NCBI RefSeq assembly: GCF_044324875.1
Contig: NZ_CP172185.1
Direction: 5' to 3' (one strand)
Length of the DNA stretch: 64,000 nucleotides
Origin: Escherichia coli
GTDB taxonomy: Bacteria; Pseudomonadota; Gammaproteobacteria; Enterobacterales; Enterobacteriaceae
A program made the position numbers and the translations under genes. Positions 844 to 27,896 of this stretch are shown one piece after another. The notes under the pieces are model-generated. The model saw only the letters and a program-made list of their open reading frames with translations, made no database searches and had not been told where the DNA came from. Position 1 is the first letter of the stretch. Each line of letters begins with the position of its first letter.

Positions 844-919
844 TGTGTCATTCCTTTTTGATTGTATATTACTGGAATGACACAGAATTTCTAACACTCC
901 CTTTTTAGATGAAATATAG

Positions 920-2603: not shown

Positions 2604-2780
2604 TTTTAGTACCATTTTAAAGTTTGACTTTGTATTTTTGCAACGAATCGCTAAAGAGAGCAGAAAAAACTATTCTCCAAAACTTGGTTATAACTACTTG
2701 ATTTTATAGATAGAGGCATGCTGTTTACACAGCAGTAAAAAGCATGCCAAATTTGCTATTAACCTTTTGAATATAAAATA

Positions 2781-4764: not shown

Positions 4765-5013
4765 GTAAACGCAACGGATGGCTTACCGATGCGGGGTTTG
4801 TGGTTAACCACCTTGGTGACTCTTAATGAGGGCGGTAATTCTACGGCAAACCGCTTGAATCGCCAATCTTTGTTGTGAATTACTGGCTTAGCTTTATATT
4901 CATTAAGGTAATGCTGATAAATATTCCCGCTTGCAGGGGTAAAAGTGACCTGACGCAATATTTGTCTTTTCTTGCTTCTTAATAATGTTGTCACAAAAAG
5001 TGAGGGTGACTAC

Positions 5014-6240: not shown

Positions 6241-6249
6241 GCGAAAAGG

Positions 6250-6273
6250 GATGCGGCATGTGATGCCGCATCC
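6250..6273. terminator. Bidirectional hairpin terminator between convergent pepT and roxA.
   Basis: Near-perfect inverted repeat GGATGCGGCAT-gtg-ATGCCGCATCC. Confidence 0.6.
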
Positions 6274-6288
6274 GGCTTAAATCCAAAC

Positions 6289-7410: not shown

Positions 7411-7611
7411 GTTAAGCATCCACAGGCTGGTATCTGCAACCGATTATAACGGATGCTTAACGTAATGCGTGAAGTATGGGCATACTTTATCAATTAGTGT
7501 TTTTTGCCGTTTCATAATGTTTCAGGTTGTGCATTATGTTTTTGATTATAAACAAATTTGTGATTTTTCTTGTTCCAGCTTGTTTCACGTTGTAGCCCTT
7601 TGTGCAACGAT

Positions 7612-7637
7612 CGGTGTAGTTAATGGTGTAGTTAATT
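7612..7637. repeat. attL core of the integrated element: CGGTGTAGTTAATGGTGTAGTTAATT, itself a tandem GGTGTAGTTAAT duplication.
   Basis: Identical 26-mer at 18721–18746; a further ~45 bp upstream of each copy is imperfectly similar. Confidence 0.65.
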
Positions 7638-8888
7638 GTGATGACCGGATTCAAAATTATGAGCAGAGCACTTAACAAGCTGAGCGATACACAGCTAAGG
7701 AAAATCAACGGCACACCCGCCCAAAAAACAGCCTTTCTTAATGACGGTGGAAACTTGAGCGTCAGGCATTCAACCAGCGGCCTTTTAACCTGGTATTTCA
7801 CTTACAGGGCCGGAACGGGAAGGGGGGCATCACCGGAACGCATTAAGCTGGGAAATTATCCTGATCTGAGCCTGAAATCAGCCAGGGAAAAAGCCGCCCA
7901 GTGTCGCGCATGGCTGGCTGAGGGGAAAAATCCACGTCATGAGATGAATTACACCGTACAGGAAGCGTTAAAGCCTGTAACGGTTGGCGATGCGCTCACC
8001 TACTGGCTTGAGTCGTACGCAAAGGAAAACCGTGTGGATTATGACCCACTGAAAAAGCGGCTAAATAATCACGTAATACAGCACATTGGCCCTATGCCGC
8101 TGGATAAATGCGAGCTACGGCACTGGCTGGCCTGTTTTGATCGGGTGGCAAAGCAAGCCCCTGTTTCCGCCGGGTTCCTGCTACAGACATGCAAACAGGC
8201 GCTTAAGTTCTGCCGGAAGCGGCGCTATGCAATCAGCAACGTTCTTGATGATATGAGTGTGGCTGACGTTGGGAAAAAACCGGATATAGGCGAACGTGTC
8301 TTAAGTACCAAAGAACTGGGCGAATTATTGCAGGCACTGGACAAAAAAATATTTTCCCCTTACTACGTCGCACTAATCCGCCTCCTGATTGTTTTCGGAT
8401 GCCGGACAGTAGAACTGAGGTTATCGGAGATCGGCGAGTGGGATTTTACCGAAATGCTCTGGACCGTTCCGAAGGAGCACAGCAAAACGAAGGTAGCCAT
8501 ATTCCGGCCCATACCGGAAGCGATACTGCCGTTCGTCACGCAGCTGATGGAGCAGAACAGGCACACGGGCTTATTGCTGGGGGAAGTGAAACAGGAAACC
8601 AGCGTGTCGCAGTACGGCAGATTAGTGCACAGGAGGCTTAAACACCCTCACTGGTCACTGCATGACATCCGGCGCACCTTTACAACGATGCTGAACGATT
8701 TAGGCGTGGATCCTCACGTCGTGGAGCAGCTTACAGGCCACCAGATGCCAGGAATGCAGCGAGTTTATAATCATTCCCGTTATCTGGATGCGAAACGCAA
8801 TGCGCTGGATATGTGGACGGAGCGGTTAGGGATACTGGCGGGAGCACATGAAAACGTAACCACGCTACCAGTAACCAGAAGAAAATAA
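7638..8888 (+). CDS. int: Tyrosine-type site-specific integrase (P4-like family).
   Basis: Starts immediately after attL; C-terminal catalytic region ...LHDIRRTFTTMLNDLGVDPHVVEQLTGHQMPGMQRVYNHSRYLDA... (R, H-x-x-R, Y). Start ambiguous: GTG 7638, ATG 7641 or ATG 7659. Confidence 0.85.
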   Translation: MMTGFKIMSRALNKLSDTQLRKINGTPAQKTAFLNDGGNLSVRHSTSGLLTWYFTYRAGTGRGASPERIKLGNYPDLSLKSAREKAAQCRAWLAEGKNPRHEMNYTVQEALKPVTVGDALTYWLESYAKENRVDYDPLKKRLNNHVIQHIGPMPLDKCELRHWLACFDRVAKQAPVSAGFLLQTCKQALKFCRKRRYAISNVLDDMSVADVGKKPDIGERVLSTKELGELLQALDKKIFSPYYVALIRLLIVFGCRTVELRLSEIGEWDFTEMLWTVPKEHSKTKVAIFRPIPEAILPFVTQLMEQNRHTGLLLGEVKQETSVSQYGRLVHRRLKHPHWSLHDIRRTFTTMLNDLGVDPHVVEQLTGHQMPGMQRVYNHSRYLDAKRNALDMWTERLGILAGAHENVTTLPVTRRK

Positions 8889-8936
8889 TTTTTTTCGTGT
8901 TTTTTCAGTATGCGCATACTGGATAAGTGCACAGAT

Positions 8937-8970
8937 ACAACGTGAAACAATAAGCAACAACGTGAAACAA
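8937..8970 (+). promoter_or_regulatory. Two direct CAACGTGAAACAA repeats, candidate integrase arm-type binding sites.
   Basis: The same motif occurs inverted beside attL (7583–7598, CTTGTTTCACGTTG) and beside attR (18681–18700, TGTTCCACGTTGTTTCAT). Confidence 0.4.
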
Positions 8971-9262
8971 CCACGAACAAGAGGTCAAAAAGTATACAGA
9001 TTTATAAGTTGCTGATTTTTAATGCTCAACTGGTTTTTTATACATTAGCGAATAACGCTTTAAATAGTGAGAAAAAAGTCATAAAACGAGATTTTATGCC
9101 TTTGCATAATACTGAATTAAAATGATTTTTATTAAAATCACCCCGTTTCTGTAAAATACCCGCCACCAACATTTGCCAACTCTGAATCACCCTGACACAA
9201 TCAGACACATCCCAACGCAATAGAACACGAAATAACTCTTTAAGAAACGAAAGGGGGCAATA

Positions 9263-9451
9263 GTGTTAAGCACTGATCGGTTTATACGTGAAAAAGAATG
9301 CGAAAAGCTAACAGGCCTTAGCCGCTCATGCCGCTACCGCCTGGAAAAGGCCGGACAATTCCCATCACGGCGTAAGCTGGGCGGTCGTTCCGTTGGCTGG
9401 TCTTTATCCGAAGTTCTGGCATGGAAGGAAAGCTGCGAGGCAGTTCACTAA
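9263..9451 (+). CDS. alpA: AlpA-family phage transcriptional regulator / excisionase-like HTH protein (62 aa, GTG start).
   Basis: MLSTDRFIREKECEKLTGLSRSCRYRLEKAGQFPSRRKLGGRSVGWSLSEVLAWKE matches the AlpA/CP4-57 regulator pattern; sits just downstream of int. Confidence 0.75.
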   Translation: MLSTDRFIREKECEKLTGLSRSCRYRLEKAGQFPSRRKLGGRSVGWSLSEVLAWKESCEAVH

Positions 9452-9777
9452 AAAGACTGGCGGCACACAGCCGCCACCCATCCACTAATACAGAGATTTA
9501 ACCATGAAGACTGGATATACGCCCGAACAGGGGCGGGGCTTCGTTCGGCCTGGTGAAACTGAAAAACAACAAAATCGCGGTTTTTCAGGCATAAAAAAAG
9601 CGGCCCCGATAAGGAGCCGCCTTTCTGAACAATTAACCTACAGCGCAAAAAATGAATCTGAGCAGTGGGATTATATCAACCGTGCAACGAAGCGCCACAA
9701 TTGCCGGATAACGGGCAAAGAAAAGGCCACCTGTCACGGTGGCCAATGTGATCAGTGTGGTGGCTTGCTGGTGGCTA

Positions 9778-9969
9778 TCAACCTTTGGGTTCTATACCGC
9801 GCCGCTTTAGTTCAGCGCGCCCCAACTCTTTAAGCCAGTTGGCTAGGCTTATGCCGTCGCTCTGCGCTTCTTTGTCGAATTGCTCTTTTAGCTCTGGAGA
9901 AATTCGCATTCTGAATTGTGGGGATTGCCCATCACCCTTAGGGCTTTTATCACGTTTGATTGTTGACAA
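9778..9969 (-). CDS. Small ribbon-helix-helix (Arc/CopG-like) DNA-binding protein, candidate repressor, divergent from the replication operon.
   Basis: 63 aa, ...RMRISPELKEQFDKEAQSDGISLANWLKEL...; followed on the minus strand by a stem plus T-run terminator (~9590–9628). Confidence 0.5.
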   Translation of the reverse strand: MSTIKRDKSPKGDGQSPQFRMRISPELKEQFDKEAQSDGISLANWLKELGRAELKRRGIEPKG

Positions 9970-10016
9970 GTGGTCACCTATTAAATTAGCCTTTCTATTG
10001 TTAGGTGGTCACCTTA
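9969..10016. promoter_or_regulatory. Divergent promoter/operator region with two direct GTGGTCACCT repeats.
   Basis: AGTGGTCACCT at 9970 and GGTGGTCACCT at 10005, between the RHH gene start and the first gene of the rightward operon. Confidence 0.35.
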
Positions 10017-10088
10017 ACACGGGGACACTTAAAAAAGCAAAGCCCGAAGGCGCTAGGAACACCAACGGGCTTCTAACCACAAACCGTT

Positions 10089-10301
10089 ATGAGAGGTAGT
10101 TTTATGGCTGTAAGACAGCATACCCCACGACTAGCGCACACACAAACCGCCTTTGTGTGGCGTTTTCTGGCACTGAGTGCCGGAGAATCTCAAATCATCC
10201 ACGTAACCGCCTGGACGGAACGCGAAGCGCGTAGCCGTTGCCCGTCCGGTTGTGTTGCTGTATTCGCCGCCCGTATTCGTCAGGGGGTGTACCATGATTA
10301 A
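10089..10301 (+). CDS. Small protein resembling host cell-division inhibitor Icd-like proteins of P4-type satellites (weak call).
   Basis: MAVRQHTPRLAHTQTAFVWRFLALSAGESQIIHVTAWTEREARSRCPSGCVAVFAARI...; first gene of a translationally coupled operon; alternative start at 10104. Confidence 0.4.
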   Translation: MRGSFMAVRQHTPRLAHTQTAFVWRFLALSAGESQIIHVTAWTEREARSRCPSGCVAVFAARIRQGVYHD

Positions 10302-10662
10302 CCTGTCACTTACCGATCTTAACCGCGTTCAGTTTCGTGAGAAATTTACCGGACAGCTACTCGTCAATGTGGAGAACGGGCGCATAGTGCGTAATTATCA
10401 CCTGCCGGATGGTGCAATTGCCGGAAGCGTTGAAGCATTGCTGGAACTGGCGGAACGTGCGCGACTGATTAAGCCGTCAACGAGCCATCACGATGATGAT
10501 CTGCATTTTACCGGATGTATGGTGAGTCACTACGAAAACGGCGTCGAGGTATCCTGCGAACGGCTGCGTGATGATTGCTGTTTCGGCACACTGCCGGAAT
10601 TTATCGAATTGCTGACCAGTTGCGGATATCAGGTTATTCAGGGGGTGCGCCATGTGCAATAA
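10294..10662 (+). CDS. Hypothetical protein (~122 aa), satellite early operon.
   Basis: ORF with start/stop overlap to both neighbours; no recognisable motif. Confidence 0.55.
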   Translation: MINLSLTDLNRVQFREKFTGQLLVNVENGRIVRNYHLPDGAIAGSVEALLELAERARLIKPSTSHHDDDLHFTGCMVSHYENGVEVSCERLRDDCCFGTLPEFIELLTSCGYQVIQGVRHVQ

Positions 10663-11107
10663 CATCCGTCCGGACGCAGCAGGCGAAGCCATCATAACGC
10701 TAATGCACGCGCTGATTGATATTTCATGCACGGCAGCAACCGCAGAAAAACACATTACCAGAGAGCCGGAATATACAGGGGCAATAATCCCGCATTCGCT
10801 GGCCTACGCACAGCTAACCGCTGATATGGCGCTGAATGAGGCTAAAGCCATCCTGATTGCTGATTGTGAAAATGGGGGGGGGGTTATGCGTGATGATCGT
10901 TTTAATTCCCTGAAACAGGAATTTTCCGGCGTTCCTGATAATGCGGCTGATGCGCTTTCGTCAATATCTGAAATTATGCGGGTGGCTTTTTTCTTTCTTT
11001 GCACTGATGAGCACAGGGATACAGGGCTAAATATTCTTGATATCGCCGCTAATTATGCTGATTTCGTAACGGAAACTGTTTTAAGAAAAACGACGGACGG
11101 GGATTAA
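10652..11107 (+). CDS. Hypothetical protein (151 aa), satellite early operon.
   Basis: Intact ORF overlapping the upstream stop; no recognisable motif. Confidence 0.55.
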   Translation: MCNNIRPDAAGEAIITLMHALIDISCTAATAEKHITREPEYTGAIIPHSLAYAQLTADMALNEAKAILIADCENGGGVMRDDRFNSLKQEFSGVPDNAADALSSISEIMRVAFFFLCTDEHRDTGLNILDIAANYADFVTETVLRKTTDGD

Positions 11108-11108
11108 T

Positions 11109-11342
11109 ATGCGTGATATTTACCACGAAACAATAGACCGCGCATTTCTTGCACTTTCTCACAGTGAAAATATGTTGGAAATATTGCGCATATGTCTTGA
11201 AACGCTTGGAGATAATGAACGTGATAAACAGAAATCAATGATTGTCACGGCATTAATAACGCTTCTTGAGCCTGTAATAAATGAGTTGCAGGAAATAGAG
11301 ACATTACACGACCAGTATAAAGCGCCCCACACCGGAGAATAA
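11109..11342 (+). CDS. Hypothetical protein (77 aa), satellite early operon.
   Basis: Starts 2 bp after the upstream stop. Confidence 0.5.
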   Translation: MRDIYHETIDRAFLALSHSENMLEILRICLETLGDNERDKQKSMIVTALITLLEPVINELQEIETLHDQYKAPHTGE

Positions 11343-11347
11343 AAAAC

Positions 11348-11635
11348 ATGAAAAATAAAAATTCTGGCGTTAATGCCAGCGGCCCCGCTCGTCCTGAAAT
11401 CCGTCCCGGCGATATTTTCCGTGATAACTACGGCGGCACGGTAATGATTAAGGGCGTGGAAGAACGGCGCGTAACCTACCGCCGTGATGGCTACGAATAT
11501 GACTGCGTTATGCCTGTTTATCAGTTCCGGCGTGATTTCACGCTGGTGGGCCATCGTAAAGCCGTTAATCAGAAACGTGCTGCAAGTTATATCCGCAAAA
11601 TCCGTGAAATGCTGGTCGCAGGGGGTAAGAAATGA
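11348..11635 (+). CDS. Hypothetical protein (95 aa), overlaps the replication gene start.
   Basis: Intact ORF; stop overlaps the start of the next gene (ATGA-type coupling). Confidence 0.55.
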   Translation: MKNKNSGVNASGPARPEIRPGDIFRDNYGGTVMIKGVEERRVTYRRDGYEYDCVMPVYQFRRDFTLVGHRKAVNQKRAASYIRKIREMLVAGGKK

Positions 11636-13038
11636 AACTTGCACCGAACGTAAAACTGTTACCGAAAGATAAACACACTGAGGCGGTTATTTTTGCGGGT
11701 GATAATGCTCACTCCTTTGCAGAACATTACATGATTGCACAGGCCAAAAAAGCAGGCGATCCCATCCCTCCGGTTTACCTGGGCCGTTATCAGTTAAGCG
11801 AACTGGACAACTTACAGATTGTTGATGAAGGACGATACAGGGCAAAGGTCATACGCGCCGGAAACCTGGACGATATGCAGATGCTGACCATTGCCACAAA
11901 ACTGGCGATCGCCGGAGTCCAGGAGGCGCGCCTACTTTCTGAAAATTTCGAACTGCTGGAGGACTGGAGCGACCAGCTACCACGACTACGGGAAACATGG
12001 GAGAGAGGGGAAAGCCTGGTCATGAATGGCGGAAAGCGAAAAATCACACTTCCCATCTCATGGGGTTCTGAGGGATTCGATGCGCAGCAAAGCTACGTCA
12101 TTAAGGGGCTTATTCCGGCTGAGTCATTATGCAGCACCTACGGGGCCAGCGGTTCTTATAAATCGTTCCTCGCCATTTCCTGGTCGTGCCATGTTGCCAC
12201 AGGTATGGCATGGGGAGGCCGCAGGGTAAGTAAGGGTGCGGTTATCTATATCGCTGGCGAAGGCAGCATGGGCGTAAAACGCCGCGTTAAGGCGTGGGAG
12301 ATAACCCACGACAAGGTGGTTACAGATTTGTGCATCATTAACGCGCCTGTTTTCCCTGCATCGCCTGACTATGTGGAGCAGGTTATCAGGACTGCCGGAC
12401 TTGTTAAGAGCAGAACGGGCGAAAATGTGCGGCTGATTGTGATCGACACGCTGGCCCGTTGCTTTGGTGGGAATGATGAAAATGATTCCCGTGATATGGG
12501 CGCATTTATCCAGGGGTGTGACGCGATAAAGCAGGCCACAGGGGCCACGGTGCTGGTGGTTCACCATTCCGGCAAGGATGAAACAAAGGGGGCGCGTGGT
12601 TCCAGTGCATTCCGTGCCGCGCTTGATGCAGAGTACCGAATCAGCCGCGAAAATTCAGACGTTACAGCACTGGTCGCAGCATGTACGAAGATGAAGGACG
12701 CAGAGGAGCCAAAAGAGAGCGCATACGACCTTAAAAGCGTGGAGGTGTTCACCGATACAGATGGCGAAGAAATTGTGTCCATGGTGGTGATTGACGTTCC
12801 CCGCGCCCCTGCTGAACTGGAGCGCATCGAGGAGGCAGGCAACAAGACGGAAAACCATACCGCGCTATGGGGGTGCATCCGTTCACGCACACAGAACGGC
12901 GACAAGTGCACGATCCCGCTGTTACGTGATGACATGAAACGGCTTGGGTATGACGTGAAAAATATGCGGCGATGGTTAGCCAAACTGGAAAAAGACGCCG
13001 TGATTTACATTGATGGTGATGATGTAGGACCACTGTAA
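11632..13038 (+). CDS. Replication initiator / RecA-fold P-loop ATPase (RepA/AAA_25-like primase-helicase family).
   Basis: 468 aa; P-loop-like YGASGSYKSF, Walker-B-like LIVIDTLARCFGG, VLVVHHSGKDETKG; followed directly by iterons. Confidence 0.75.
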   Translation: MKLAPNVKLLPKDKHTEAVIFAGDNAHSFAEHYMIAQAKKAGDPIPPVYLGRYQLSELDNLQIVDEGRYRAKVIRAGNLDDMQMLTIATKLAIAGVQEARLLSENFELLEDWSDQLPRLRETWERGESLVMNGGKRKITLPISWGSEGFDAQQSYVIKGLIPAESLCSTYGASGSYKSFLAISWSCHVATGMAWGGRRVSKGAVIYIAGEGSMGVKRRVKAWEITHDKVVTDLCIINAPVFPASPDYVEQVIRTAGLVKSRTGENVRLIVIDTLARCFGGNDENDSRDMGAFIQGCDAIKQATGATVLVVHHSGKDETKGARGSSAFRAALDAEYRISRENSDVTALVAACTKMKDAEEPKESAYDLKSVEVFTDTDGEEIVSMVVIDVPRAPAELERIEEAGNKTENHTALWGCIRSRTQNGDKCTIPLLRDDMKRLGYDVKNMRRWLAKLEKDAVIYIDGDDVGPL

Positions 13039-13240
13039 AAAGTGAGTAGTAAAAGTGAGTAATGGTGAGGTTTTTACAAAATATTAACACAATTACTCAC
13101 TTTCTCACCTGTATACATGCTCAAAAGTGAGCAGTGAAAAAACACTTATGAAACATGCACATATAAAACACAAAAATCTCAAGTGAGACGAAGTGAGACG
13201 CTTTAAAAAGTGAGTAGTAAAAGTGAGAGATGGTGAGCAA
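13039..13240. repeat. Iteron cluster, putative satellite replication origin.
   Basis: A ~30-bp unit AAAAGTGAGTAGTAAAAGTGAG(T/A)(A/G)ATGGTGAG occurs twice (13037–13070 and 13203–13237), with about ten AAGTGAG-type motifs including tandem AAGTGAGACGAAGTGAGACG and an inverted copy. Confidence 0.55.
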
Positions 13241-13608
13241 TGAATAAAAACCGAACAGCAGGACAAAATACCGAAGGTAAATTTATGAACACTGAAATTG
13301 AAACACTGAGCATATCAACTGCCCTTCCTGGCTGGTGGGCTAAGTTCAAAGACGACGACGGCACGGAATGGTATAGCCCAATTGCTGCATGGGCGCTTTG
13401 TGATATCCACCATTTCGGCACCGGAGATACTTACCGCGAAATCTTACCCGTGCTGACCAGTGAGCTGGGCATGAGTCCGCATAGTCCTGATGAGGGAATG
13501 TGCGAGTGCCTTTATCTGCCGGATAAGAAGTTTGTTCACTGTGGTGAATCGATGGTATTTGCCTGGTATCCGGTTAACGACAGCAGCAATAGCGGTACTC
13601 TGGAGTAA
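13240..13608 (+). CDS. Hypothetical protein (122 aa; alternative start MNTEIETL at 13285).
   Basis: ORF immediately downstream of the iterons. Confidence 0.45.
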   Translation: MNKNRTAGQNTEGKFMNTEIETLSISTALPGWWAKFKDDDGTEWYSPIAAWALCDIHHFGTGDTYREILPVLTSELGMSPHSPDEGMCECLYLPDKKFVHCGESMVFAWYPVNDSSNSGTLE

Positions 13609-13611
13609 ATC

Positions 13612-13854
13612 ATGAAGGTAAACCACAAAAAGACAGATCACCGCGCCATTGACCTTACAGAGCACTGGCTGAGGGTGGCGATAAAAATCATCGACCGCAA
13701 CACGGGGGAAGGATACGCGAAAGCACATCCCGAACTGATAAGTGCATTCATGACCACAGCGGCGGCAAACTTTGCCACGCTGACAGAGCGGGATATTGCC
13801 GAAGCAGAACAGGTAACAACCATCAACGTTAAAACCAGTGAGGTGGAATCATGA
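13612..13854 (+). CDS. Hypothetical protein (80 aa).
   Basis: ORF whose stop overlaps the ssb-like start. Confidence 0.45.
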   Translation: MKVNHKKTDHRAIDLTEHWLRVAIKIIDRNTGEGYAKAHPELISAFMTTAAANFATLTERDIAEAEQVTTINVKTSEVES

Positions 13855-14261
13855 CAGCACAGATAGCGGCTTACGGGCGGCTGGTGGACGACCCGCAGGT
13901 AAAACAGACCAGTAAGGGTACACCGATGACGCTGGCGCGTATGGCGGTATCTTTACCATGCGGCCAGGCACAGGACGGACAGGCGACGTTATGGTTATCG
14001 GTCATCGCATTTGGCAAACAGGCCGACTTTCTGGCTAAACATCAAAAAGGCGACGTTGCCAGCGTATCCGGCACGATGCAGGTCAGCCAGTGGACCGGAC
14101 AGAACGGGGAAACGCGGCAGGGTTATCAGGTTATTGCAGACAGCGTAATCAGTGCCCGTGCGGCACGTCCTGGCGGGAACAGACGCAAAACCACAGGCAC
14201 ACAGGGTAATCAGCCACCAGCGGGAGGCGATGACCCTTACGGTGATGATATTCCGTTCTGA
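13851..14261 (+). CDS. ssb: Single-stranded DNA-binding protein homologue (short OB-fold) with a conserved SSB C-terminal tip.
   Basis: WLSVIAFGKQADFLAKHQKGDVASVSGTMQVSQWTGQNGETRQGYQV parallels E. coli SSB [48 protein letters not shown]; Gly/Pro-rich linker; ends ...DPYGDDIPF (E. coli SSB ends DFDDDIPF). Confidence 0.8.
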   Translation: MTAQIAAYGRLVDDPQVKQTSKGTPMTLARMAVSLPCGQAQDGQATLWLSVIAFGKQADFLAKHQKGDVASVSGTMQVSQWTGQNGETRQGYQVIADSVISARAARPGGNRRKTTGTQGNQPPAGGDDPYGDDIPF

Positions 14262-14271
14262 GGGGGTGACG

Positions 14272-14544
14272 ATGGTACATGACCGCATAGCGGAGGAACT
14301 CGAGGCAAAAGGATTTTACCGGAGGGCGGCGGCGCGATGGGGTGAAGTTATGAGGCTGGTGAGCACTGACAAGGAGCGCGAACAGGTGGCAATGCGACGG
14401 CTGGAATGTTCCCTGAAGGCACAGAGGCCACCGGAGCCGCCGGATGATTTAGGCGCTCTGAAAAGGTCAGTTAATCGCACTGAAAAACAAATGGGGATAG
14501 CTGGTATTGGCAAAGCAATATGGCGCAACTACCCGCAGAAGTGA
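14272..14544 (+). CDS. PerC-family transcriptional regulator-like protein (~90 aa).
   Basis: MVHDRIAEELEAKGFYRRAAARWGEVMRL... resembles the PerC N-terminal pattern; six-frame ORF 14152..14544 trimmed to the ATG after the ssb stop. Confidence 0.5.
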   Translation: MVHDRIAEELEAKGFYRRAAARWGEVMRLVSTDKEREQVAMRRLECSLKAQRPPEPPDDLGALKRSVNRTEKQMGIAGIGKAIWRNYPQK

Positions 14545-14550
14545 GCACAC

Positions 14551-14620
14551 AGCCGGAGCAATCCGGCTTTTTTACGCCTAAAAAAAGCCCGATAAGGTCA
14601 AAGGGGGCTTATCGGGCTTT
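14551..14620 (+). terminator. Two tandem rho-independent terminators ending the satellite replication/regulation operon.
   Basis: AGCCGGAGCAATCCGGCTTTTTT, then AAAGCCCGATAAGG-tcaaagggg-CTTATCGGGCTTTT. Confidence 0.6.
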
Positions 14621-14784
14621 TGTAGAGGAGGTTTTTTATGGTGCACTGGCACACATGATCGGGATAATCATTTCATAATTTGCAACATAACTCAATATTG
14701 TTGCGCAAAATGCAATCATGATTATAATCAGGACTGGATGAACATCCAGTTATGATTTTTTAAGTCAAAGAGGAATTTCTGACT

Positions 14785-14991
14785 ATGGCAGAAGAGAAAA
14801 AAGGCGGGGTGACGGTCTACATAAGCCCCGACATCGTGGAGGCGCTCAAGGAACGCCACCAGCAGAATGTAAAAGCAGGCATTGCGGCAGGACTTGATCC
14901 GCTGGCGATGGTTGAGCCGTCAACAGGCTGGCAGGTGCGTACCTATTTACGTGCGGCGCTGGGTATCAATCAGGTTCACGGAGGTGAATAA
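14785..14991 (+). CDS. Hypothetical small protein (68 aa), first gene of the head module (possible scaffold or assembly factor).
   Basis: ORF translationally coupled to the capsid gene; preceded by an AT-rich promoter region with palindromes TGATTATAATCA and TTGCGCAA. Confidence 0.45.
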   Translation: MAEEKKGGVTVYISPDIVEALKERHQQNVKAGIAAGLDPLAMVEPSTGWQVRTYLRAALGINQVHGGE

Positions 14992-16046
14992 TGACAGGCA
15001 AAGCAAAGGCACTTACAACTAACCAGCTTTTCGCGTACCTGAATCGCGGGGATATTTCGGAATATAAATTTAGTCCGCTGTTTACCACGCTGTTTTTCCC
15101 GAACGTGGCGACCTTCAACACCCAAAACATCATGCTGGACACCCTGGACATTGAAGAGGTTACGATGTCAGCGTTCTGTTCTCCTATGGTGGGTAGTCAG
15201 GTCCAGCGCGATAAAGGGTACGAAACCAGCACGATTAAACCAGGCTACATGAAGCCAAAGCACGAAATCGATCCAACAAAGACCATCATGCGCATGGATG
15301 GAGAAGATCCGGCACAGCTTAACGATCCAACTTACCGCCGTATGCGCCTGATTACTGGCAACATGCGCCGCCAGATAAACGCCATTAAGGCGCGCGTGGA
15401 ATGGCTGGCGGTGAATGCGGTAACGACCGGAAAAAACATCATTGAGGGCGAAGGCATAGAACGCTATGAAATCGACTGGAAAATACCGGAAAACTGCATC
15501 ATACAGCAGGCCAGTGGTAAAAAATGGTCCCAGCAGGATAAAGACATGCACGACCCAATCTATGACATCGAGCTTTATGCTGATCAGGCAGGTTGCCCCG
15601 CCAACGTCATGATTATGGGCGGTGAGGTATGGCGCACATTACGCAGCTTTAAAAAATTCCGTGAACTGTACGATCTTTCCCGTGGATCAGAATCCGCCGC
15701 CGAGCTGGCCTGTAAAAACCTGGGCGAAGTGGTGAGCTTTAAAGGCTATCTTGGTGATCTGGCCCTTATCGTCTATTCCGGCAAATACACTGACAGCGAC
15801 GGGACCGAAAAATATTTCCTTGAGCCTGATTTGCTGGTCCTGGGTAACACCAACAATAAAGGGCTGGTGGCATATGGTGCGATTATGGATCAGGAAGCGG
15901 TAAGAACGGGCGCAACGCAAAACATGTACTACCCGAAAAACTGGATTGAGGACGGCGATCCGGCGATTGAGTACGTGCAGACGCACAGCGCACCGCAGCC
16001 TGTACCGGCAGATATTCGCAAATTTGTTACCGTCAAAATTGCTTAA
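14991..16046 (+). CDS. Phage lambda gpE-family major capsid protein homologue.
   Basis: 351 aa; collinear matches to recalled lambda gpE: FSPLFTTLFFP vs FDPLFLRLFF, PGYMKPKHEIDP vs PGYVKPKHEVNP, DPTYRRMR vs DPAYRRRR, VSFKGYLGDLALIVYSG vs VSYKGMYGDVAIVVYSG, YYPKNW vs RYPKNW. Confidence 0.85.
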   Translation: MTGKAKALTTNQLFAYLNRGDISEYKFSPLFTTLFFPNVATFNTQNIMLDTLDIEEVTMSAFCSPMVGSQVQRDKGYETSTIKPGYMKPKHEIDPTKTIMRMDGEDPAQLNDPTYRRMRLITGNMRRQINAIKARVEWLAVNAVTTGKNIIEGEGIERYEIDWKIPENCIIQQASGKKWSQQDKDMHDPIYDIELYADQAGCPANVMIMGGEVWRTLRSFKKFRELYDLSRGSESAAELACKNLGEVVSFKGYLGDLALIVYSGKYTDSDGTEKYFLEPDLLVLGNTNNKGLVAYGAIMDQEAVRTGATQNMYYPKNWIEDGDPAIEYVQTHSAPQPVPADIRKFVTVKIA

Positions 16047-16057
16047 CGGGGGATTCT

Positions 16058-16393
16058 ATGGACGCTCCATACATTGAGTTATTTTCAGGCAGCCAACAGG
16101 TATCCACGACGCTGGTACATTTTGCCGCTGATGCTGGCGTTATTCAGGAATTTACCCCGCTGATGCTGGCAGACAATGGCGAGTTTAAGCCGTGGGATGG
16201 TAAGGAATCTGGCAAGGCTGTTTATCTGACCTCGTACCCTGTGGACACGTCAAAGCAGAAATCAGCACAGTGTTACAAGACGGGGATATTCAATATTGCC
16301 GCCGTTAACTGGCCTGACAGCGTCGACACCGATGCGAAAAAATGCGCCGCCTTTGCGGGTTCCGGCGTATCCGTTCAGCCGCTGGCCCGATAA
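16058..16393 (+). CDS. Phage lambda gpD-like head decoration protein homologue.
   Basis: 111 aa; FTPLMLADNGEFKPWDG / KTGIFNIAAVNWPDSVDTDAKKCAAFAGSGVSV parallels lambda gpD MTPLMLDTSSRKLVAWDG / [34 protein letters not shown]. Confidence 0.7.
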   Translation: MDAPYIELFSGSQQVSTTLVHFAADAGVIQEFTPLMLADNGEFKPWDGKESGKAVYLTSYPVDTSKQKSAQCYKTGIFNIAAVNWPDSVDTDAKKCAAFAGSGVSVQPLAR

Positions 16394-16467
16394 GCAGGGG
16401 GAACGATGGCACAAACCAGGGCGATGACGGCGACATCTATCGCATACTGAAAACCATCTGAGACAAG

Positions 16468-16491
16468 GCCGGAGAAATCCGGCTTTTTTTG
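16468..16491 (+). terminator. Rho-independent terminator after the head genes, just upstream of cos.
   Basis: GGCCGGAGAAATCCGGCTTTTTTT; near-identical to the 14551 terminator. Confidence 0.55.
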
Positions 16492-16499
16492 CGGGTCCT

Positions 16500-16640
16500 T
16501 TCCGGCATGTGGACCCGTTACGGGGCGTCGACCTCGCACGTTTTCGCTATTTATGAAAATTTTCCGGGAAAAAGCATGTCAGTTCTTCTTGTTATTAACA
16601 TATTGTTTTTAAAGAAATAACTATCAAGAAAGAAACGACA
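16500..16640. other. Lambda-type cohesive-end site (cosQ/cosN/cosB-like); predicted 12-nt overhang region GGGCGTCGACCT at 16523–16534.
   Basis: GTTACGGGGCGTCGACCTCGCACGTTTTCGCTATTTATGAAAATTTTCCGG is near-identical to the lambda genome ends (GTTACG|GGGCGGCGACCTCGCGGGTTTTCGCTATTTATGAAAATTTTCCGG); a downstream GAAAGAAACGACA resembles a lambda cosB R site. Confidence 0.8.
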
Positions 16641-16710
16641 TCATAATGATGAAAAATCTGTTTTTTTTGGCATTTCATGTCGTAACTGATTTTTGATAAG
16701 GAATTGCTGA

Positions 16711-17295
16711 ATGAATGTTAATAAAAAGAGGCTTGCCGAAATTTTTAACGTGGACCCGCGGACGATTGAACGCTGGCAGTCACAGGGGCTTCCTTGCGTC
16801 TCCAAAGGCAGTAAGGGCATTGAATCTGTATTTGATACTGCCATGGCAATTCAGTGGTATGCGCGGAGGGAAACTGATATCGAAAACGAAAAGCTCCGCA
16901 AAGAACTGGACGATTTGCGTGCGGCAGCGGAGTCAGATTTACAACCCGGCACCATTGACTATGAACGCTATCGGCTCACAAAAGCGCAGGCAGATGCGCA
17001 GGAACTTAAAAACGAGCGCGATCGCGGTGACGTGATTGATACAGAGTTTTGCATGTACGCGCTTTCAAAACTGGCGAGTCAGATTTCATCAATCATGGAC
17101 AGCCTCCCGCTTACTATGCAAAGGAGCTTCCCACAGATGACCCCCGCCATGCTGGATGGCCTGAAAAAAGAAGTTGTCAGAGCCTGTAACGCATGCACAA
17201 AACTTGATGAAAACATCCCGCGAATGCTGTCCGATTATCTGATGGAAACTACCGGAAATGTGCCTGATAAGTTTCAGCCGGATAAAGACAAGTAA
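16711..17295 (+). CDS. Terminase small subunit, lambda Nu1 family (TerS/Rpp-like).
   Basis: [29 protein letters not shown]...[44 protein letters not shown] tracks lambda Nu1 MEVNKKQLADIFGASIRTIQNWQEQGMPV...[44 protein letters not shown]. Confidence 0.85.
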
Positions 17296-17536
17296 CGTAG
17301 TGCACAATGACCGAAGCCAGTTTACTGACTGGCTTTCAGCGTTGCGCTGGTGGGCGTTATGCGTCAGTGATAAACGTCTCCAATATTACTGATATTCGAC
17401 ATCCCCACCTCTCCACACCAGCTCGAATATCATTTTTCTCATTAAAAACAGGACATTAAAAACTGGTCAGATGTCCCATAAAAAGCCAAATGGGACAGGT
17501 CAAAAGCTTTTTTTGCAGTAATTTTCAATAGGTTAC

Positions 17537-17935
17537 TTGATGTGGTGGTGTCCCATGAAAATTCAAAAATCAGCCGTTTTCCGCGATGCTCCCGCCCCGT
17601 GGCAGGGCACCCCACAAGGAGGACCCGCCATCACTATGGAGGACATGACCATGACCGAGACCGAAGCGCTCGGGATAATCCGCAGTATTACCGGAATCAG
17701 CCAGCAGGCTGGCGAACAGGAGGCCACGCAGCCGGACAGCGTGATCGCCGAAAATTACGTGCGTGTTGTTGCTGATGTAATGCGCCGTGATGGTATTGAG
17801 CTTAACGGCGTGGATATGCGCGACATACGAATCAGAGTACTAGAGTTGCTGGCATACCGTCGACGCGTGGCGATGTATCAGGAGAGCGCGAAAAACACTT
17901 ATCAGTGGAAGAAGCCGGAGCGGTTACGGCGGTAA
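17537..17935 (+). CDS. Hypothetical protein (likely ~100 aa from an internal ATG near 17636, which has an RBS).
   Basis: ORF downstream of terS; no recognisable motif; ends 1 bp before the palindrome array. Confidence 0.45.
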   Translation: MMWWCPMKIQKSAVFRDAPAPWQGTPQGGPAITMEDMTMTETEALGIIRSITGISQQAGEQEATQPDSVIAENYVRVVADVMRRDGIELNGVDMRDIRIRVLELLAYRRRVAMYQESAKNTYQWKKPERLRR

Positions 17936-18560
17936 CTGGTTGATATTTTCGAAATTCGCCAGCGGCGAACATCGGGGAAACCAGCCTAACCAGTTGATTC
18001 TTTCGGAAACAGCCATTGGCGGAATCCGGCGCGGTAACTTGCTGATATTCCCGATAACGCAAAATTGCGCTGGCTACATCCCTCACATCTGAGGACTGAT
18101 AATGCGACATTGCGCTGGCTGGCAAAGTGCAAAATTGCACGATGGCCTAACCCATTGATTATTTCGAAAACCTGCAATGCAGGAAATCGGGGAAGTAAGC
18201 CTAAGCTATTGATTCTTTCGGAAACCTCAATTTGAGGAAGTCGGCGCGGTAACTCGCTGAACTTAAAGCAAACCTCAAAATTGAGCTGGCTGAATAATCA
18301 TTATGATTACGCAGATGATTAAGGAATGACCGAAGGCGGAAATTCGCCTGTGGTTGATGGGGGAGTTGCAGATCTGCAACTCGACCATGAAACTACGGAA
18401 ACTACCCGTAGTTTGGGTAGTAAGAGTAACACCCAGATTTTGGGACTTACTCGTGATACCCAAATTTGGAGTATCGGTGGCAACCATAACGACTTTCGTT
18501 ACGGTTGATGCTTTTACCCCATTGGGGGAAAGGTATTACGATAATCATAACACCTACCGA
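17936..18560. repeat. Array of many distinct short palindromes in a diverged, duplicated scaffold (unknown function).
   Basis: Scaffold TTGAT(A/T)(T/A)TTTCGAAA...ATCGGGGAA..AGCCTAA occurs twice, and TTGATTCTTTCGGAAAC...TCGGCGCGGTAACT..GCTGA twice; different palindromes in each copy (e.g. TTCGCCAGCGGCGAA, CCTGCAATGCAGG, GTTGCAGATCTGCAAC). Full list in findings. Confidence 0.7.
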
Positions 18561-18720
18561 ACAGGTAAAGCCCACCAGCCTGATTGACATTTAACCGGAA
18601 AAAAAGCCAGGTAGCCCCGTTATGTGGATCCCCATATCGACAGCAACGCCCCCTTAAAATTACCCGCCTTTATATTTCTTGTGCCTATTTGTTCCACGTT
18701 GTTTCATACAGTGCGCCGAA

Positions 18721-18746
18721 CGGTGTAGTTAATGGTGTAGTTAATT
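18721..18746. repeat. attR core, direct repeat of attL.
   Basis: Identical 26-mer to 7612–7637. Confidence 0.65.
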
Positions 18747-18826
18747 TGCGATTTTTGGCACTTTTGTTTGTGTATATTTTTAATTAAATCAATACATTAA
18801 CTAATATCGGTGATAAAAGGGCATAT

Positions 18827-20287
18827 TTATTCATCTTTCGGCGCAGAATGCTGGCGACCAAAAATCACCTCCATCCGCGCACCGCCCAGCATGCTCTCTC
18901 CGGCGACGATTTTACCCTCATATTGCTCGGTGATTTCGCGGGCTACCGCCAGCCCTACACCTTGCCCAGGGCGTAAAGTATCAACCCGTTGACCACGGTC
19001 GAAAATGACCTCTCGCTTGCTTAATGGAATACCGGGGCCATCATCCTCGACCACAATATAGAGATGCTCGTCGGTTTGCCTTGCAGATATTTCGACAAAC
19101 TCGAGGCAATATTTACAGGCATTATCCAGCACGTTGCCCATCACCTCGACAAAATCGTTCTGCTCACCGACAAAGCTGATCTCTGGCGAAATATCGAGAG
19201 AGATATTGACCCCTTTGCGTTGATACACTTTGTTCAGCGCCGAGGTGAGATTGTCCAGCAGTGGGGCGACCGGATGTAGCTCGCGGCTAAGCAATGTCCC
19301 GCCGCGCATACTGGCACGATGCAGGTAGTAGCCAATTTGCTGTGAAATGCGACTGATTTGCTCCAGCATTACCGGCTCAGCATCACTGACGCTCATCTTC
19401 TCACTACGCAGAGAACGCAGCGTACTTTGCAGCACCGCCAGTGGCGTTTTCAGACTATGGGTCAGGTCGGTGAGCGTTGTACGATATTTGTCGTAACGTT
19501 CGCGTTCACTTTTTAACAATCGGTTCAGGTTTCGTACCAGACTGGTCAGTTCTCGCGTTGTGGCTGGATTGAGCAATTCGCGGTTATGTTCTTCCAGTTC
19601 GCGGACTTCTTTTGCCAGGGCTTCGATGGGGCGTAAACTCCACCTGGCGGCGACCCACAGCAGCGGGATCACTAACAGCAGATTGGCTGAGAGCACATAG
19701 ATAAACCAGCTCCAGACCATATAGGAACTTTTTAGCTCCACCGGAATGGTATCCACCACCACAATGGTCAACTTTGGCATCCGCGATGTTGCCGGGTAGA
19801 CGTTTACCGCCACCGAGTGGGTCATCTCCGCGTCGTCATCATCTTCCCGCACTTCCTGCAACTGTTGCTGTATCGAATGATCTCCACTCAGCAAGAGGCT
19901 GGTATCGTTAACATCCGCTTCAATTTCATGAAAACCATTCGATTTCAGCCAGTCAGGCTGGATCATCTTCATCAGCCAGGGCACGTCACGTTGCGCCCAT
20001 AAAAGCTGCCCGTTCTCATCATAAATTAGCGTCATAGTGGGGCTTTGCTTGTCGATATTTTCGGGTAACTCGACATGCAACTTATTGTTTTCCCACTTCG
20101 CAAGGGTATAGAACAGATTGCTCTCGCCACGTAACAGCCGAAACGTAGTTTTATCGAAACTGACGCTATAACCGATCAGCGCGACCATTCCGTAGGCAAG
20201 CGAAAGCACCAGTACAACCGCTGCCGTTGCCAATAGAAAACGTACCCGCAGCGAGAGCGGGAAAAAAAGACGCAGTAATTTTTTCAT
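18827..20287 (-). CDS. phoQ: Sensor histidine kinase PhoQ.
   Basis: 486-aa ORF; HAMP/histidine-kinase motifs ([17 protein letters not shown]); overlaps phoP stop. Confidence 0.95.
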
Positions 20288-27804: not shown

Positions 27805-27896
27805 GTAGACTGGCCCCCTGAATCTCCAGACAACCAGTATCACTTAAATAAGTGATAGTCTTAATACTAGTTTTTAGACTAGTCATTGGAGAACAG

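What the first reader, a model, noticed from the sequence alone, without database searches (positions are those of the whole stretch)
7612..18746. An ~11.1 kb integrated cos-type phage satellite (PICI-like) between roxA and phoQ
The segment is bounded by a perfect 26-bp direct repeat (CGGTGTAGTTAATGGTGTAGTTAATT at 7612 and 18721), itself a tandem 12-mer duplication. It starts with a tyrosine integrase and alpA, then a divergent RHH repressor, a translationally coupled early operon, a RepA-like ATPase with iterons, an SSB-like gene and a PerC-like regulator, then a head/packaging module (gpE-like, gpD-like, cos, Nu1-like terS). There are no terL, portal, protease, tail or lysis genes, so it cannot be a complete phage. 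In K-12 roxA and phoQ are adjacent, so this is an insertion in an intergenic site rather than a tRNA gene.
Basis: partly seen in the sequence, partly recalled or inferred. Interest (0 to 1): 0.75.

Follow-up and report, generated by a model that had tools for sequence, protein, structure and literature searches.

The report
EcCICFT073-type phage satellite beside phoQ
This is an ordinary member of a well-studied family of E. coli phage satellites (PICIs) at their known roxA–phoQ insertion site; the 26-bp repeat is most likely an integrase arm-binding site inside the element, not its boundary.

Summary
The 26-bp direct repeat and the gene content are real. The segment is a phage-inducible chromosomal island (PICI) of the EcCICFT073 family. 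It sits at the published ycfD(roxA)–phoQ attachment site, which is occupied by related islands in roughly 15% of complete E. coli genomes.

The boundaries given are wrong. Comparison with K-12 puts the junctions at a 7-bp core, GGGCATA (7479–7485 and 18819–18825), directly after the phoQ stop codon. This matches the published core GGACATATTT. The inserted DNA is 7486–18818, or 11,340 bp with one core copy.

The 26-mers lie 126 bp and 72 bp inside the element. They recur at the same distances in related PICIs at four other loci that have different junction sequences. No genome holds an empty site containing a lone 26-mer. The integrase has an arm-DNA-binding domain, so the 26-mers are best read as arm-type integrase sites.

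Unlike EcCICFT073, the island has no rpp gene. It carries a λ/21-type cos site and a full-length small terminase (TerS) that is a chimera. Residues 1–100 are 97% identical to phage 21 gp1, next to 21-like cosB boxes. The last 95 residues are identical to a satellite-specific TerS tail.

This is a new member of a known kind, of low to moderate interest.

The parts
7479..7485 (.). attL crossover core GGGCATA (last bases shared with the K-12 empty site)
   Evidence: K-12 homology ends here. CFT073 has GGACATATTT at the same place; this is the published att core.
7486..7611 (+). P' arm of the element. It starts with CTTTATCAATTAGTG and contains TTGT motifs in 10-bp phase at 7570, 7580, 7590 and 7600.
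   Evidence: an identical left end follows a different core (ATAACAGCA) in the tqsA PICI; elements at other loci begin their homology exactly at 7486; the TTGT phasing is conserved.
7612..7637 (+). Left 26-mer (two tandem GGTGTAGTTAAT); proposed arm-type integrase-binding sites
   Evidence: the integrase has an Arm-DNA-bind_3 domain.
7659..8888 (+). Tyrosine integrase, 409 aa from the ATG (the ORF opens at GTG 7638)
   Evidence: phrog_1 3e-73; Pfam Arm-DNA-bind_3 3e-17 plus Phage_integrase 4e-17; 95–99% identical by domain to the GF4 and CFT073 integrases.
9263..9451 (+). alpA (AlpA-family regulator/excisionase-like protein)
   Evidence: phrog_2790 1e-17; Pfam Phage_AlpA on the identical gene in L015. 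Its role as activator is taken from PMC6092414.
9778..9969 (-). Small divergent ORF with a possible ribbon-helix-helix fold; function unknown
   Evidence: phrog_228 Arc-like 5e-7; Pfam HicB 7e-4 and Arc 0.2.
10089..11342 (+). Early operon of overlapping or abutting small ORFs: Icd-like 10089–10301, then 10294–10662, 10652–11107 and 11109–11342
   Evidence: NCBIfam phage_ICD_like 5e-18; PHROGs families of unknown function; gaps of −8, −11 and +1 nt between ORFs. This block is absent from GF4 and mostly absent from CFT073.
11348..11635 (+). DUF4222 / RgdR-family protein
   Evidence: phrog_285; Pfam DUF4222; 63% identical to CFT073 C1493, with PGD where RgdR has RGD (PMC3378721).
11632..13038 (+). 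RepA-family replicative helicase/initiator (AAA_25)
   Evidence: phrog_2850 2e-187 and helicase/primase PHROGs; Pfam AAA_25; RefSeq names it 'helicase RepA family protein'.
13033..13245 (.). Replication origin candidate: AT-rich spacer with 8 AGTGAG iterons and a 37-bp direct repeat (13033–13069 and 13201–13237)
   Evidence: 8 copies against 0.11 expected; GC 0.42.
13285..13854 (+). Two small ORFs of unknown function (13285–13608 and 13612–13854)
   Evidence: phrog_27268 and phrog_1231; called as genes in L015 and L016.
13851..14261 (+). Single-stranded DNA-binding protein
   Evidence: phrog_44 2e-40; TIGR00621 above its cut-off.
14272..14544 (+). PerC-family regulator, followed by a terminator-like hairpin at 14551–14568
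   Evidence: phrog_994 and transcriptional-activator PHROGs; Pfam PerC; terminator scan.
14785..16046 (+). 68-aa ORF (14785–14991) that overlaps the next gene by 1 nt, then the λ gpE-family major capsid homologue (14991–16046)
   Evidence: phrog_3255; phrog_29 2e-108; Pfam Phage_cap_E; 46% identical to the phage 21 capsid protein.
16058..16393 (+). λ gpD-family head decoration homologue
   Evidence: phrog_49 1e-26; Pfam HDPD; 41% identical to phage 21 D.
16467..16688 (+). Terminator hairpin 16467–16490, then the cos site: cosQ/R4-like box 16492–16503, cosN 16523–16534 (GGGCGTCGACCT), I2-like 16552–16566, and 21-like cosB with R3 16572–16587, I1 16593–16608, R2 16630–16645 and R1 16673–16688
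   Evidence: 85% nt identity to phage 21 cos/gene 1; site names transferred from the M81255 annotation.
16711..17295 (+). Chimeric small terminase (194 aa): phage-21-type DNA-binding half joined to a satellite-specific C-terminal half
   Evidence: phrog_57 4e-68; residues 1–100 are 97/100 identical to 21 gp1, residues 100–176 are 28/76, and the last 95 are 95/95 identical to the TUM1886 PICI TerS; PDB 7lwr 51/54; the C-terminal half is at most 56.5% identical to any phage record.
17651..17935 (+). Conserved 94-aa ORF of unknown function near the right end
   Evidence: phrog_1561 4e-49; homologues at the same position in CFT073, GF4, L005, L006 and L020.
18721..18746 (+). Right 26-mer (two tandem GGTGTAGTTAAT), preceded by phased TTGT motifs at 18679, 18689 and 18699; proposed P-arm integrase sites
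18747..18818 (+). Remainder of the P arm (72 bp) up to the core
   Evidence: 71–72 bp in the PICIs at roxA–phoQ and tqsA.
18819..18825 (.). attR crossover core GGGCATA, one base before the phoQ stop codon (18827–18829)

Best explanation
The insertion is an EcCICFT073-family PICI, a helper-dependent phage satellite. It occupies 7486–18818 plus one copy of a 7-bp core.

Integration. A P4-type tyrosine integrase placed it at the known ycfD(roxA)–phoQ attachment site, with crossover in GGGCATA directly after the phoQ stop codon. The two 26-mers are not the crossover site. Each is a pair of 12-bp sites, 126 bp into the P' arm and 72 bp into the P arm. They are most likely bound by the integrase's N-terminal arm-binding domain to assemble the recombination complex. 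The adjacent TTGT motifs in 10-bp phase are candidate sites for an accessory protein.

Life cycle, inferred by analogy with EcCICFT073 and not shown here. A lambdoid helper phage switches on alpA. AlpA activates the rightward operon. The island excises, and the RepA-family helicase replicates it from the iteron origin at 13033–13245.

Packaging. This differs from the prototype. There is no Rpp. The island encodes its own full-length TerS, whose phage-21-type DNA-binding half matches 21-like R boxes in the island's cosB. Its satellite-specific C-terminal half presumably docks the helper's large terminase. The helper enzyme would then cut cosN at 16523–16534 and package island concatemers into helper-built virions.

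The gpE-like and gpD-like genes are family hallmarks. In the prototype they were dispensable for transfer and for interference.
For: Family and site:
- CFT073 and GF4 carry colinear islands at the same locus, at 66–80% coverage and 92–97% identity.
- Fillol-Salom 2018 Table S1 places EcCICFT073 at ycfD–phoQ with core GGACATATTT.
- 816 of 5,426 genomes cover at least 80% of a 700-bp query spanning the roxA–integrase junction. This count includes some related integrases at other loci.

Boundaries:
- K-12 homology breaks at 7485 and 18819.
- The element's left end, CTTTATCAATTAGTG…, is identical after a different core in the tqsA PICI.
- Homologous elements at other loci begin at 7486.

26-mers as arm sites:
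- They are present at both ends of the PICIs at roxA–phoQ, tqsA, cspD–clpS and IS110, and of the allE PICI whose ends were read from two loci. The spacing of 124–127 bp and 71–72 bp was measured for the roxA–phoQ and tqsA elements; in the IS110 PICI the 26-mers lie about 115 and 60 bp inside the split gene.
- A lone-26-mer empty site is absent from 5,426 E. coli genomes. The 24-mer is absent from 100,044 species-representative genomes except one unrelated cyanobacterial site.
- The integrase has an Arm-DNA-bind_3 domain.
- Integrases that target different sites keep the arm domain (100% identical in the TUM1886 tqsA element) but diverge most in the core-binding region (78–88%).
- The RM10042 element has variant 12-mers, GGTGTAGTCACT, in both left copies and one right copy (the other right copy is GGTGTAGTCATT), and an arm domain only 80% identical.

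Modules: PHROGs, Pfam and NCBIfam hits; iterons.

Packaging: cos aligns with phage 21 cos including R3, I1, R2 and R1. The TerS is a chimera. The only Rpp-related ORF is the TerS itself, 21% identical to CFT073 RppA, and one search finds no DNA match to CFT073 rppA.

Life cycle: experiments on EcCICFT073 in PMC6092414 and PMC6739421.
Against: - Nothing here shows activity. No excised or circular junction was found in viral or metagenome collections for either att model.
- Arm-site binding is inferred from position, conservation and domain content, not from footprinting.
- Covariation between the 12-mer and the arm domain is imperfect. The cspD element keeps the 12-mer with an arm domain only 81% identical.
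- No helper prophage lies in the window. The icd site is empty.
- How a TerS whose DNA-binding half is 97% identical to the helper-type gp1 would discriminate satellite cos from helper cos is unexplained.
- The 137-aa c1501-like gene present in relatives is missing here, with unknown consequence.
Confidence: 0.85

Rival explanations
1. One reading: the 26-bp direct repeats are the attL and attR cores, and the mobile unit is exactly 7612–18746.
For: It is the longest perfect direct repeat flanking the island. It directly abuts the integrase gene. The same 26-mer is listed as the 'att' of EcCIDI14 in Table S1 of Fillol-Salom 2018.
Against: - The K-12-type empty site lacks the 26-mer and lacks the 126 bp and 72 bp outside it.
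- No genome has an empty site with a lone 26-mer (0 of 5,426).
- The outer 126-bp and 72-bp segments travel with the element to tqsA, allE, IS110 and cspD–clpS.
- Those loci have their own different junction repeats: ATAACAGCA at tqsA and GGACATATTT at roxA–phoQ.
Confidence: 0.04
2. A decayed lambdoid prophage remnant: the E-like, D-like and Nu1-like genes are leftovers of a larger phage rather than parts of a satellite.
For: The capsid, decoration and TerS proteins belong to λ/21 families. cos is 85% identical to phage 21 cos. Related islands were historically annotated as cryptic prophages (CP-933C/OI-51, PMC3378721).
Against: - The flanks are colinear with K-12 up to a precise 7-bp junction on both sides.
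- The same compact architecture recurs intact in many genomes and at several loci.
- The capsid gene precedes the decoration gene, the reverse of phage 21. The proteins are only 46% and 41% identical to the phage proteins.
- The replication and regulation modules (AlpA, DUF4222, RepA helicase, iterons) are those of the PICI family, not of lambdoid phages.
- The prototype was shown to be a mobilisable satellite (PMC6092414).
Confidence: 0.03
3. The island is a PICI, but the 26-mers and phased TTGT blocks are binding sites for a regulator such as AlpA or the RHH-like protein, or are replication or partition elements, rather than integrase arm sites.
For: AlpA-family proteins act as recombination directionality factors in P4-like elements (established knowledge). 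The left 26-mer lies just upstream of int, where it could serve as a promoter operator. No binding data exist.
Against: - Symmetric placement on both sides of the core at conserved distances is the classic arm-site layout.
- The integrase carries a dedicated arm-binding domain.
- The right copy is far from any promoter of a known gene.
- In EcCICFT073, AlpA did not control int expression (PMC6092414).
Confidence: 0.08

Closest known systems
EcCICFT073 (prototype Gram-negative cos PICI, E. coli CFT073; Fillol-Salom 2018 and 2019)
   Same: Same attachment site (ycfD/roxA–phoQ) and core. Same integrase type with the same 26-mer arm repeats. Same gene order: int–alpA–early operon–DUF4222/RgdR–replication–SSB–PerC–capsid E-like–decoration D-like–cos–right-end ORF. 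90–93% nt identity over int–alpA and over the SSB–capsid block.
   Different: EcCICFT073 has a P4-type primase where this island has a RepA-family helicase. It has rppA, a PICI-specific cosB and two cos sites, and no terS (PMC6092414, PMC6739421). This island has one cos site with 21-like cosB, a full-length chimeric terS and no rpp. It also lacks the c1501-like 137-aa gene and has a different early operon.
TerS-bearing PICIs of the same family (e.g. EcCIDI14 in an IS110 gene; islands at tqsA in TUM1886 and at cspD–clpS in C 237-04 and ECCNB12-2)
   Same: Same architecture and arm repeats. The TerS C-terminal half is 99–100% identical.
   Different: They integrate elsewhere. Their TerS DNA-binding halves and cosB regions are of two other types. 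Only the window's type matches phage 21.
Phage 21 cos / gp1 (λ-family small terminase, Nu1 homologue)
   Same: cosQ, cosN, I2, R3, I1, R2 and R1 have the same layout upstream of terS. TerS residues 1–100 are 97% identical. The DNA-binding domain is 51/54 identical to PDB 7lwr.
   Different: The C-terminal half is 37% identical and carries a 13-residue extension. No terL follows. One base differs in the cosN overhang (GGGCGTCGACCT against GGGCGGCGACCT). R-box cores read CATGTCAG or ATGTCGT where phage 21 has GTGTCGG or ATGTCGG.
Capsid-forming PICIs (cf-PICI; e.g. CP-933C/OI-51 of O157:H7 at the same site)
   Same: Related integrase, alpA and replication genes. Some occupy the same roxA–phoQ site (hit H4).
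   Different: cf-PICIs carry an HK97-type capsid, protease, portal, connectors, HNH, a P27-type terS and terL. None of these is present here.
Satellite phage P4
   Same: Integrase with an arm-binding domain, an AlpA/Vis-like protein, a cos site, helper dependence, and an Icd-like ORF.
   Different: No Sid, Psu, Delta, epsilon or alpha primase homologues were detected. The organisation and helper type (lambdoid rather than P2) differ (PMC6092414).

Membership tests
Gram-negative PICI (EcCICFT073 type) | Conserved unidirectional organisation: int, alpA regulator, replication module, then packaging/interference genes | tested here: met
   colinear with CFT073 and GF4.
Gram-negative PICI (EcCICFT073 type) | Integration at a PICI-specific attachment site (ycfD–phoQ, core GGACATATTT) | tested here: met
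   Junctions lie at GGGCATA(Y)TT; published site and core.
Gram-negative PICI (EcCICFT073 type) | Size of about 10–15 kb and absence of phage terL, portal, tail and lysis genes | tested here: met
   11.34 kb; no such PHROG hits among all ORFs of 60 aa or more.
Gram-negative PICI (EcCICFT073 type) | Replication origin with iterons immediately downstream of the replication gene | tested here: met
   8 AGTGAG copies in 213 bp against 0.11 expected; 37-bp direct repeat.
Gram-negative PICI (EcCICFT073 type) | Helper-phage-dependent induction, excision, replication and high-frequency transfer | not testable with these tools
   Shown only for the prototype (PMC6092414). No excised junction was found in public contigs.
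Rpp-type cos PICI (Fillol-Salom 2019) | Encodes Rpp (about 144–153 aa), which forms a complex with helper TerS and recognises a PICI-specific cosB | tested here: not met
   The rppA position is occupied by a 194-aa Nu1-family TerS that is 21% identical to CFT073 RppA. cosB is 21-like. There is no DNA match to CFT073 rppA.
Capsid-forming PICI (cf-PICI) | HK97-type capsid, prohead protease, portal, head-tail connectors and terL | tested here: not met
   None detected. Compare the true cf-PICIs in L007 and L008.
P4-like satellite | psu-delta-sid operon, epsilon and alpha primase | tested here: not met
   No PHROG match to these functions. The replication protein is a RepA-family helicase.
λ-type integrase attP architecture (arm-type sites) | Integrase with an N-terminal arm-binding domain, plus repeated sites in both arms distant from the core | tested here: met
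   Arm-DNA-bind_3 3e-17. Two 12-mers sit at +126 bp and two at −72 bp from the core, conserved across attB types.
λ-type integrase attP architecture (arm-type sites) | Physical binding of the arm domain to those sites | not testable with these tools
   Needs EMSA or footprinting.
PICI as called by SatelliteFinder (de Sousa 2023) | Five core-component profile model with forbidden phage genes | not tested
   The program is not available here. Only the description of the model was read.

The most novel reading that the evidence does not exclude
EcCICFT073-family PICIs may use a third, uncharacterised packaging strategy alongside Rpp. In this reading the satellite TerS has a private, satellite-specific C-terminal half, at most 56.5% identical to any of 50,697 phage records, which captures the helper's large terminase. 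Its DNA-binding half and the adjacent cosB would be exchanged as one specificity cassette. Three cassette types were seen here. The window's cassette would have been captured from a phage-21-like helper, so that the satellite mimics its helper's cos recognition.
Probability: 0.35. Interest if true: 0.45.

Novelty: new member of a known kind. Interest (0 to 1): 0.25.

Why it matters
The practical value is in three corrections and additions.

- Delimiting the island. The longest direct repeat at the ends of these islands is not the attachment core. The same 26-mer is listed as an att site in a published PICI table, so tools or readers that delimit islands by the longest repeat will place the ends of this family 126 bp and 72 bp too far in on the two sides.
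- A testable attP. The map gives a 7-bp core, two pairs of 12-bp arm sites at fixed distances, and phased TTGT motifs.
- Packaging diversity. Within one PICI family, the slot holding Rpp in the prototype can instead hold a TerS with swappable DNA-binding/cosB cassettes. This bears on which helper phages can mobilise which islands.

These islands also carry RgdR- and PerC-family regulators that are linked to virulence gene control in pathogenic E. coli.

Tried and rejected
- Excised junctions. I searched IMG/VR and JGI metagenome contigs for the predicted circular junction under both att models, the 7-bp core and the 26-mer core. All four scans returned 0 hits, so there is no direct evidence of excision either way.
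- 24-mer in species representatives. A scan of 100,044 species-representative genomes gave one hit, in the cyanobacterium Oculatella between guaB3-like and sucC genes with no integrase nearby. I judged it probably coincidental, because the 24-mer is a duplicated 12-mer and carries about 12 nt of information.
- RNA families. Rfam at E ≤ 1 over 7300–19000 found nothing.
- Defence systems. PADLOC on ten unassigned ORFs found nothing, so no recognisable anti-phage cargo is present.
- NCBIfam added little beyond SSB and Icd-like.
- The promoter-consensus scan found fewer sites than shuffles and was not used.
- A helper prophage in the window was considered and rejected. Apart from the island, IS2, an IS21-family element and the left 2.8 kb, the window is colinear with K-12, and icd carries no prophage.
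- A nested-insertion model, with the PICI inside an older 224-bp element, was considered and rejected. The outer segments accompany the element to other loci.

Full report
**Observation**

The 26-mer CGGTGTAGTTAATGGTGTAGTTAATT occurs exactly twice in the window, at 7612–7637 and 18721–18746. None was expected in 100 shuffles. It is a tandem duplication of GGTGTAGTTAAT.

PHROGs, Pfam and NCBIfam support it:
- tyrosine integrase with an Arm-DNA-bind_3 domain, 7659–8888
- AlpA, 9263–9451
- small divergent ORF with a weak RHH/HicB signal, 9778–9969(−)
- run of overlapping small ORFs starting with an Icd-like protein, 10089–11342
- DUF4222 protein, 11348–11635
- RepA-family helicase, 11632–13038
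- AT-rich spacer with eight AGTGAG iterons, 13033–13245, against 0.11 expected
- SSB, 13851–14261
- PerC, 14272–14544
- λ gpE-family capsid homologue, 14991–16046
- gpD-family decoration homologue, 16058–16393
- cos site, 16492–16688
- Nu1-family small terminase, 16711–17295

No ORF of 60 aa or more matches a large terminase, portal, protease, tail or lysis family.

**What it is**

Megablast against 5,426 complete E. coli genomes shows that the flanks are ordinary roxA and phoQ, adjacent in K-12. Strains CFT073 and GF4 carry colinear islands at the same locus.

The CFT073 island is EcCICFT073, the experimentally characterised prototype of Gram-negative phage-inducible chromosomal islands. Table S1 of Fillol-Salom et al. 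2018 places it at ycfD(=roxA)–phoQ, with a size of 11.4 kb and att core GGACATATTT.

A 700-bp query spanning the roxA–integrase junction is covered at 80% or more in 816 of 5,426 genomes. That count includes some related integrases at other loci.

The exact TerS of this window is on record in 107 public E. coli contigs. In the places returned it is always in this same island at roxA–phoQ. So the element is a member of a known family at a known site, and the same island has already been sequenced many times.

**Boundaries and the 26-mer**

- Aligned to the K-12 empty site, the window is identical up to 7485 and again from 18819. The two junctions share only GGGCATA (7479–7485 and 18819–18825). 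The right copy ends one base before the phoQ stop codon. In CFT073 the shared block is GGACATATTT, as published.
- The 26-mers therefore lie 126 bp and 72 bp inside the inserted DNA.
- A reconstructed empty site holding one 26-mer is found in none of 5,426 genomes.
- The same pair of 12-mers sits at both ends of related PICIs integrated at tqsA, at cspD–clpS and inside an IS110 transposase gene, and at both ends of the allE PICI, whose two ends were read from separate loci.
- In the tqsA island the element's left end, CTTTATCAATTAGTG…, is identical to the window's but follows a different core, ATAACAGCA.
- Homology of elements at other loci starts exactly at window position 7486.
- The distances are conserved in the roxA–phoQ and tqsA elements: core to 26-mer is 124–127 bp on the integrase side and 71–72 bp on the other side.

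The integrase carries an arm-DNA-binding domain. Among integrases that target different sites, the arm domain stays conserved (100% identical between the window and the TUM1886 tqsA element). The central, core-binding region diverges most, at 78–88%. One more distant element (RM10042) has the variant 12-mer GGTGTAGTCACT in both left copies and one right copy, with GGTGTAGTCATT as the other right copy, together with an arm domain only 80% identical.

By the λ Int paradigm (established knowledge), this is the signature of arm-type integrase sites in attP, not of the crossover core.

Next to each 26-mer are TTGT motifs in exact 10-bp phase, conserved across all these elements. They are candidate sites for a directionality factor.

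The same 26-mer is listed as the 'att' of EcCIDI14 in the 2018 supplementary table. In that genome it also lies about 115 and 60 bp inside the split IS110 gene.

**Packaging module**

EcCICFT073 has no terS. It uses Rpp, which complexes with helper TerS and redirects it to a PICI-specific cosB (PMC6739421).

The window's island has no rpp. After a terminator hairpin (16467–16490) it has a λ/21-type cos site:
- cosQ/R4-like box, 16492–16503
- cosN GGGCGTCGACCT, 16523–16534, one base different from λ and phage 21
- I2-like site, 16552–16566
- cosB whose R3, I1, R2 and R1 boxes align with those annotated for phage 21

The TerS that follows is a clean chimera:
- Residues 1–100 are 97/100 identical to phage 21 gp1, and 51/54 to the solved DNA-binding domain 7lwr.
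- Residues 100–176 are only 28/76 identical to gp1.
- The last 95 residues are 95/95 identical to the TerS of PICIs at other loci.

That C-terminal half has no close phage counterpart, at most 56.5% identity in 50,697 phage records.

Other PICIs carry the same C-terminal half with two other DNA-binding halves, each next to a different cosB. The DNA-binding half and cosB therefore appear to be exchanged as a unit.

**Likely mechanism**

Every step below is inferred from homology and from the prototype. None is shown here.
1. A lambdoid helper induces alpA. AlpA activates the island's rightward genes.
2. The integrase excises the island at the GGGCATA core.
3. The RepA-family helicase replicates it from the iteron origin.
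4. The island's TerS binds its own R boxes and recruits the helper's large terminase, which cuts cosN and fills helper-made virions.
5. Four island copies would give 45.4 kb, close to a λ-sized genome. The 2018 paper already proposed multimer packaging for the prototype.

The capsid and decoration homologues are 46% and 41% identical to those of phage 21 and are in the reverse gene order. Their homologues were dispensable for transfer and interference in EcCICFT073.

No helper prophage lies in the window, and the icd site is empty. Two other assemblies with the same island do have a lambdoid integrase next to icd.

**Rivals**
- The 26-mer-as-core model is contradicted as described above.
- A decayed prophage is contradicted by the precise junctions, the recurrent compact architecture at several loci, and the PICI-type regulation and replication modules.
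- A non-integrase role for the 26-mers cannot be excluded without binding data, but it fits the symmetric placement less well.

**Verdict**

This is a correct and careful spot of a satellite, but the satellite is a known kind at its known site. The modest new points are the corrected boundaries, the attP anatomy, and a TerS/cosB cassette of phage 21 type in place of Rpp.

Noticed in passing
window 7558–7603 and 18679–18702: TTGT motifs in exact 10-bp phase (−42, −32, −22, −12 relative to each 26-mer) on both att arms. They are conserved in PICIs at five different loci. They are candidate binding sites for AlpA, another directionality factor, or a DNA-bending protein.
   Followed up: partly
window 1–2800: This stretch is not colinear with K-12. 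Downstream of potB, potC and potD are replaced by IS256/IS66-like fragments (about 1–900) and an alpha/beta-hydrolase ORF (920–1705, minus strand) that is 88–92% identical to a gene elsewhere in other E. coli genomes. The pot operon appears truncated by an IS-mediated rearrangement.
   Followed up: partly
window 27806–29137 and 38455–41095: Two insertions relative to K-12: an IS2 copy (TnpB 301 aa, NCBIfam 3e-215) and an IS21-family element (istA/istB) inside the ycgH autotransporter pseudogene. The e14 prophage is absent from icd (window 26942 joins K-12 downstream of e14).
   Followed up: partly
window 11348–11635: The DUF4222 protein is 63% identical to CFT073 C1493, an RgdR orthologue that regulates type III secretion and motility. 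It has PGD where RgdR has its RGD motif. Residue 20 was shown to matter for RgdR activity (PMC3378721).
   Followed up: partly
L014 (E. coli clone D i14) 2548–2573 and 13164–13189: Fillol-Salom 2018 Table S1 gives this same 26-mer as the att site of EcCIDI14. In the genome it lies about 115 and 60 bp inside the split IS110 transposase gene, so there too it is probably an arm repeat rather than the core.
   Followed up: partly
L021 (Oculatella sp. LEGE 06141) 12267–12290: The only exact match to the 24-mer among 100,044 species-representative genomes is in a cyanobacterium, between a guaB3-like gene and sucC, with no integrase nearby. It is probably coincidence, because the sequence is a duplicated 12-mer.
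   Followed up: partly
window 16411/16403 junction; L001 10740–11153; L002 11113–11526: The 137-aa gene found between the decoration gene and cos in CFT073 (the c1501 position), GF4, TUM1886 and Di14 is cleanly absent from this island. One public variant (L018) has both that gene and the chimeric TerS. RefSeq annotates one homologue as a head-tail connector protein.
   Followed up: no
window 10652–11107: This 151-aa ORF matches two separate PHROG families end to end (phrog_5146 on residues 1–73, phrog_24341 on 79–151). In a sister island (L015) the same position holds two genes of 80 and 73 aa, so this looks like a gene fusion or a split.
   Followed up: no
L020 (E. coli ECCNB12-2) 2923–12397: A PICI at cspD–clpS has the satellite-type TerS with a third kind of DNA-binding half and cosB. 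It has no capsid or decoration genes and carries a ProQ/FinO-family gene instead.
   Followed up: no
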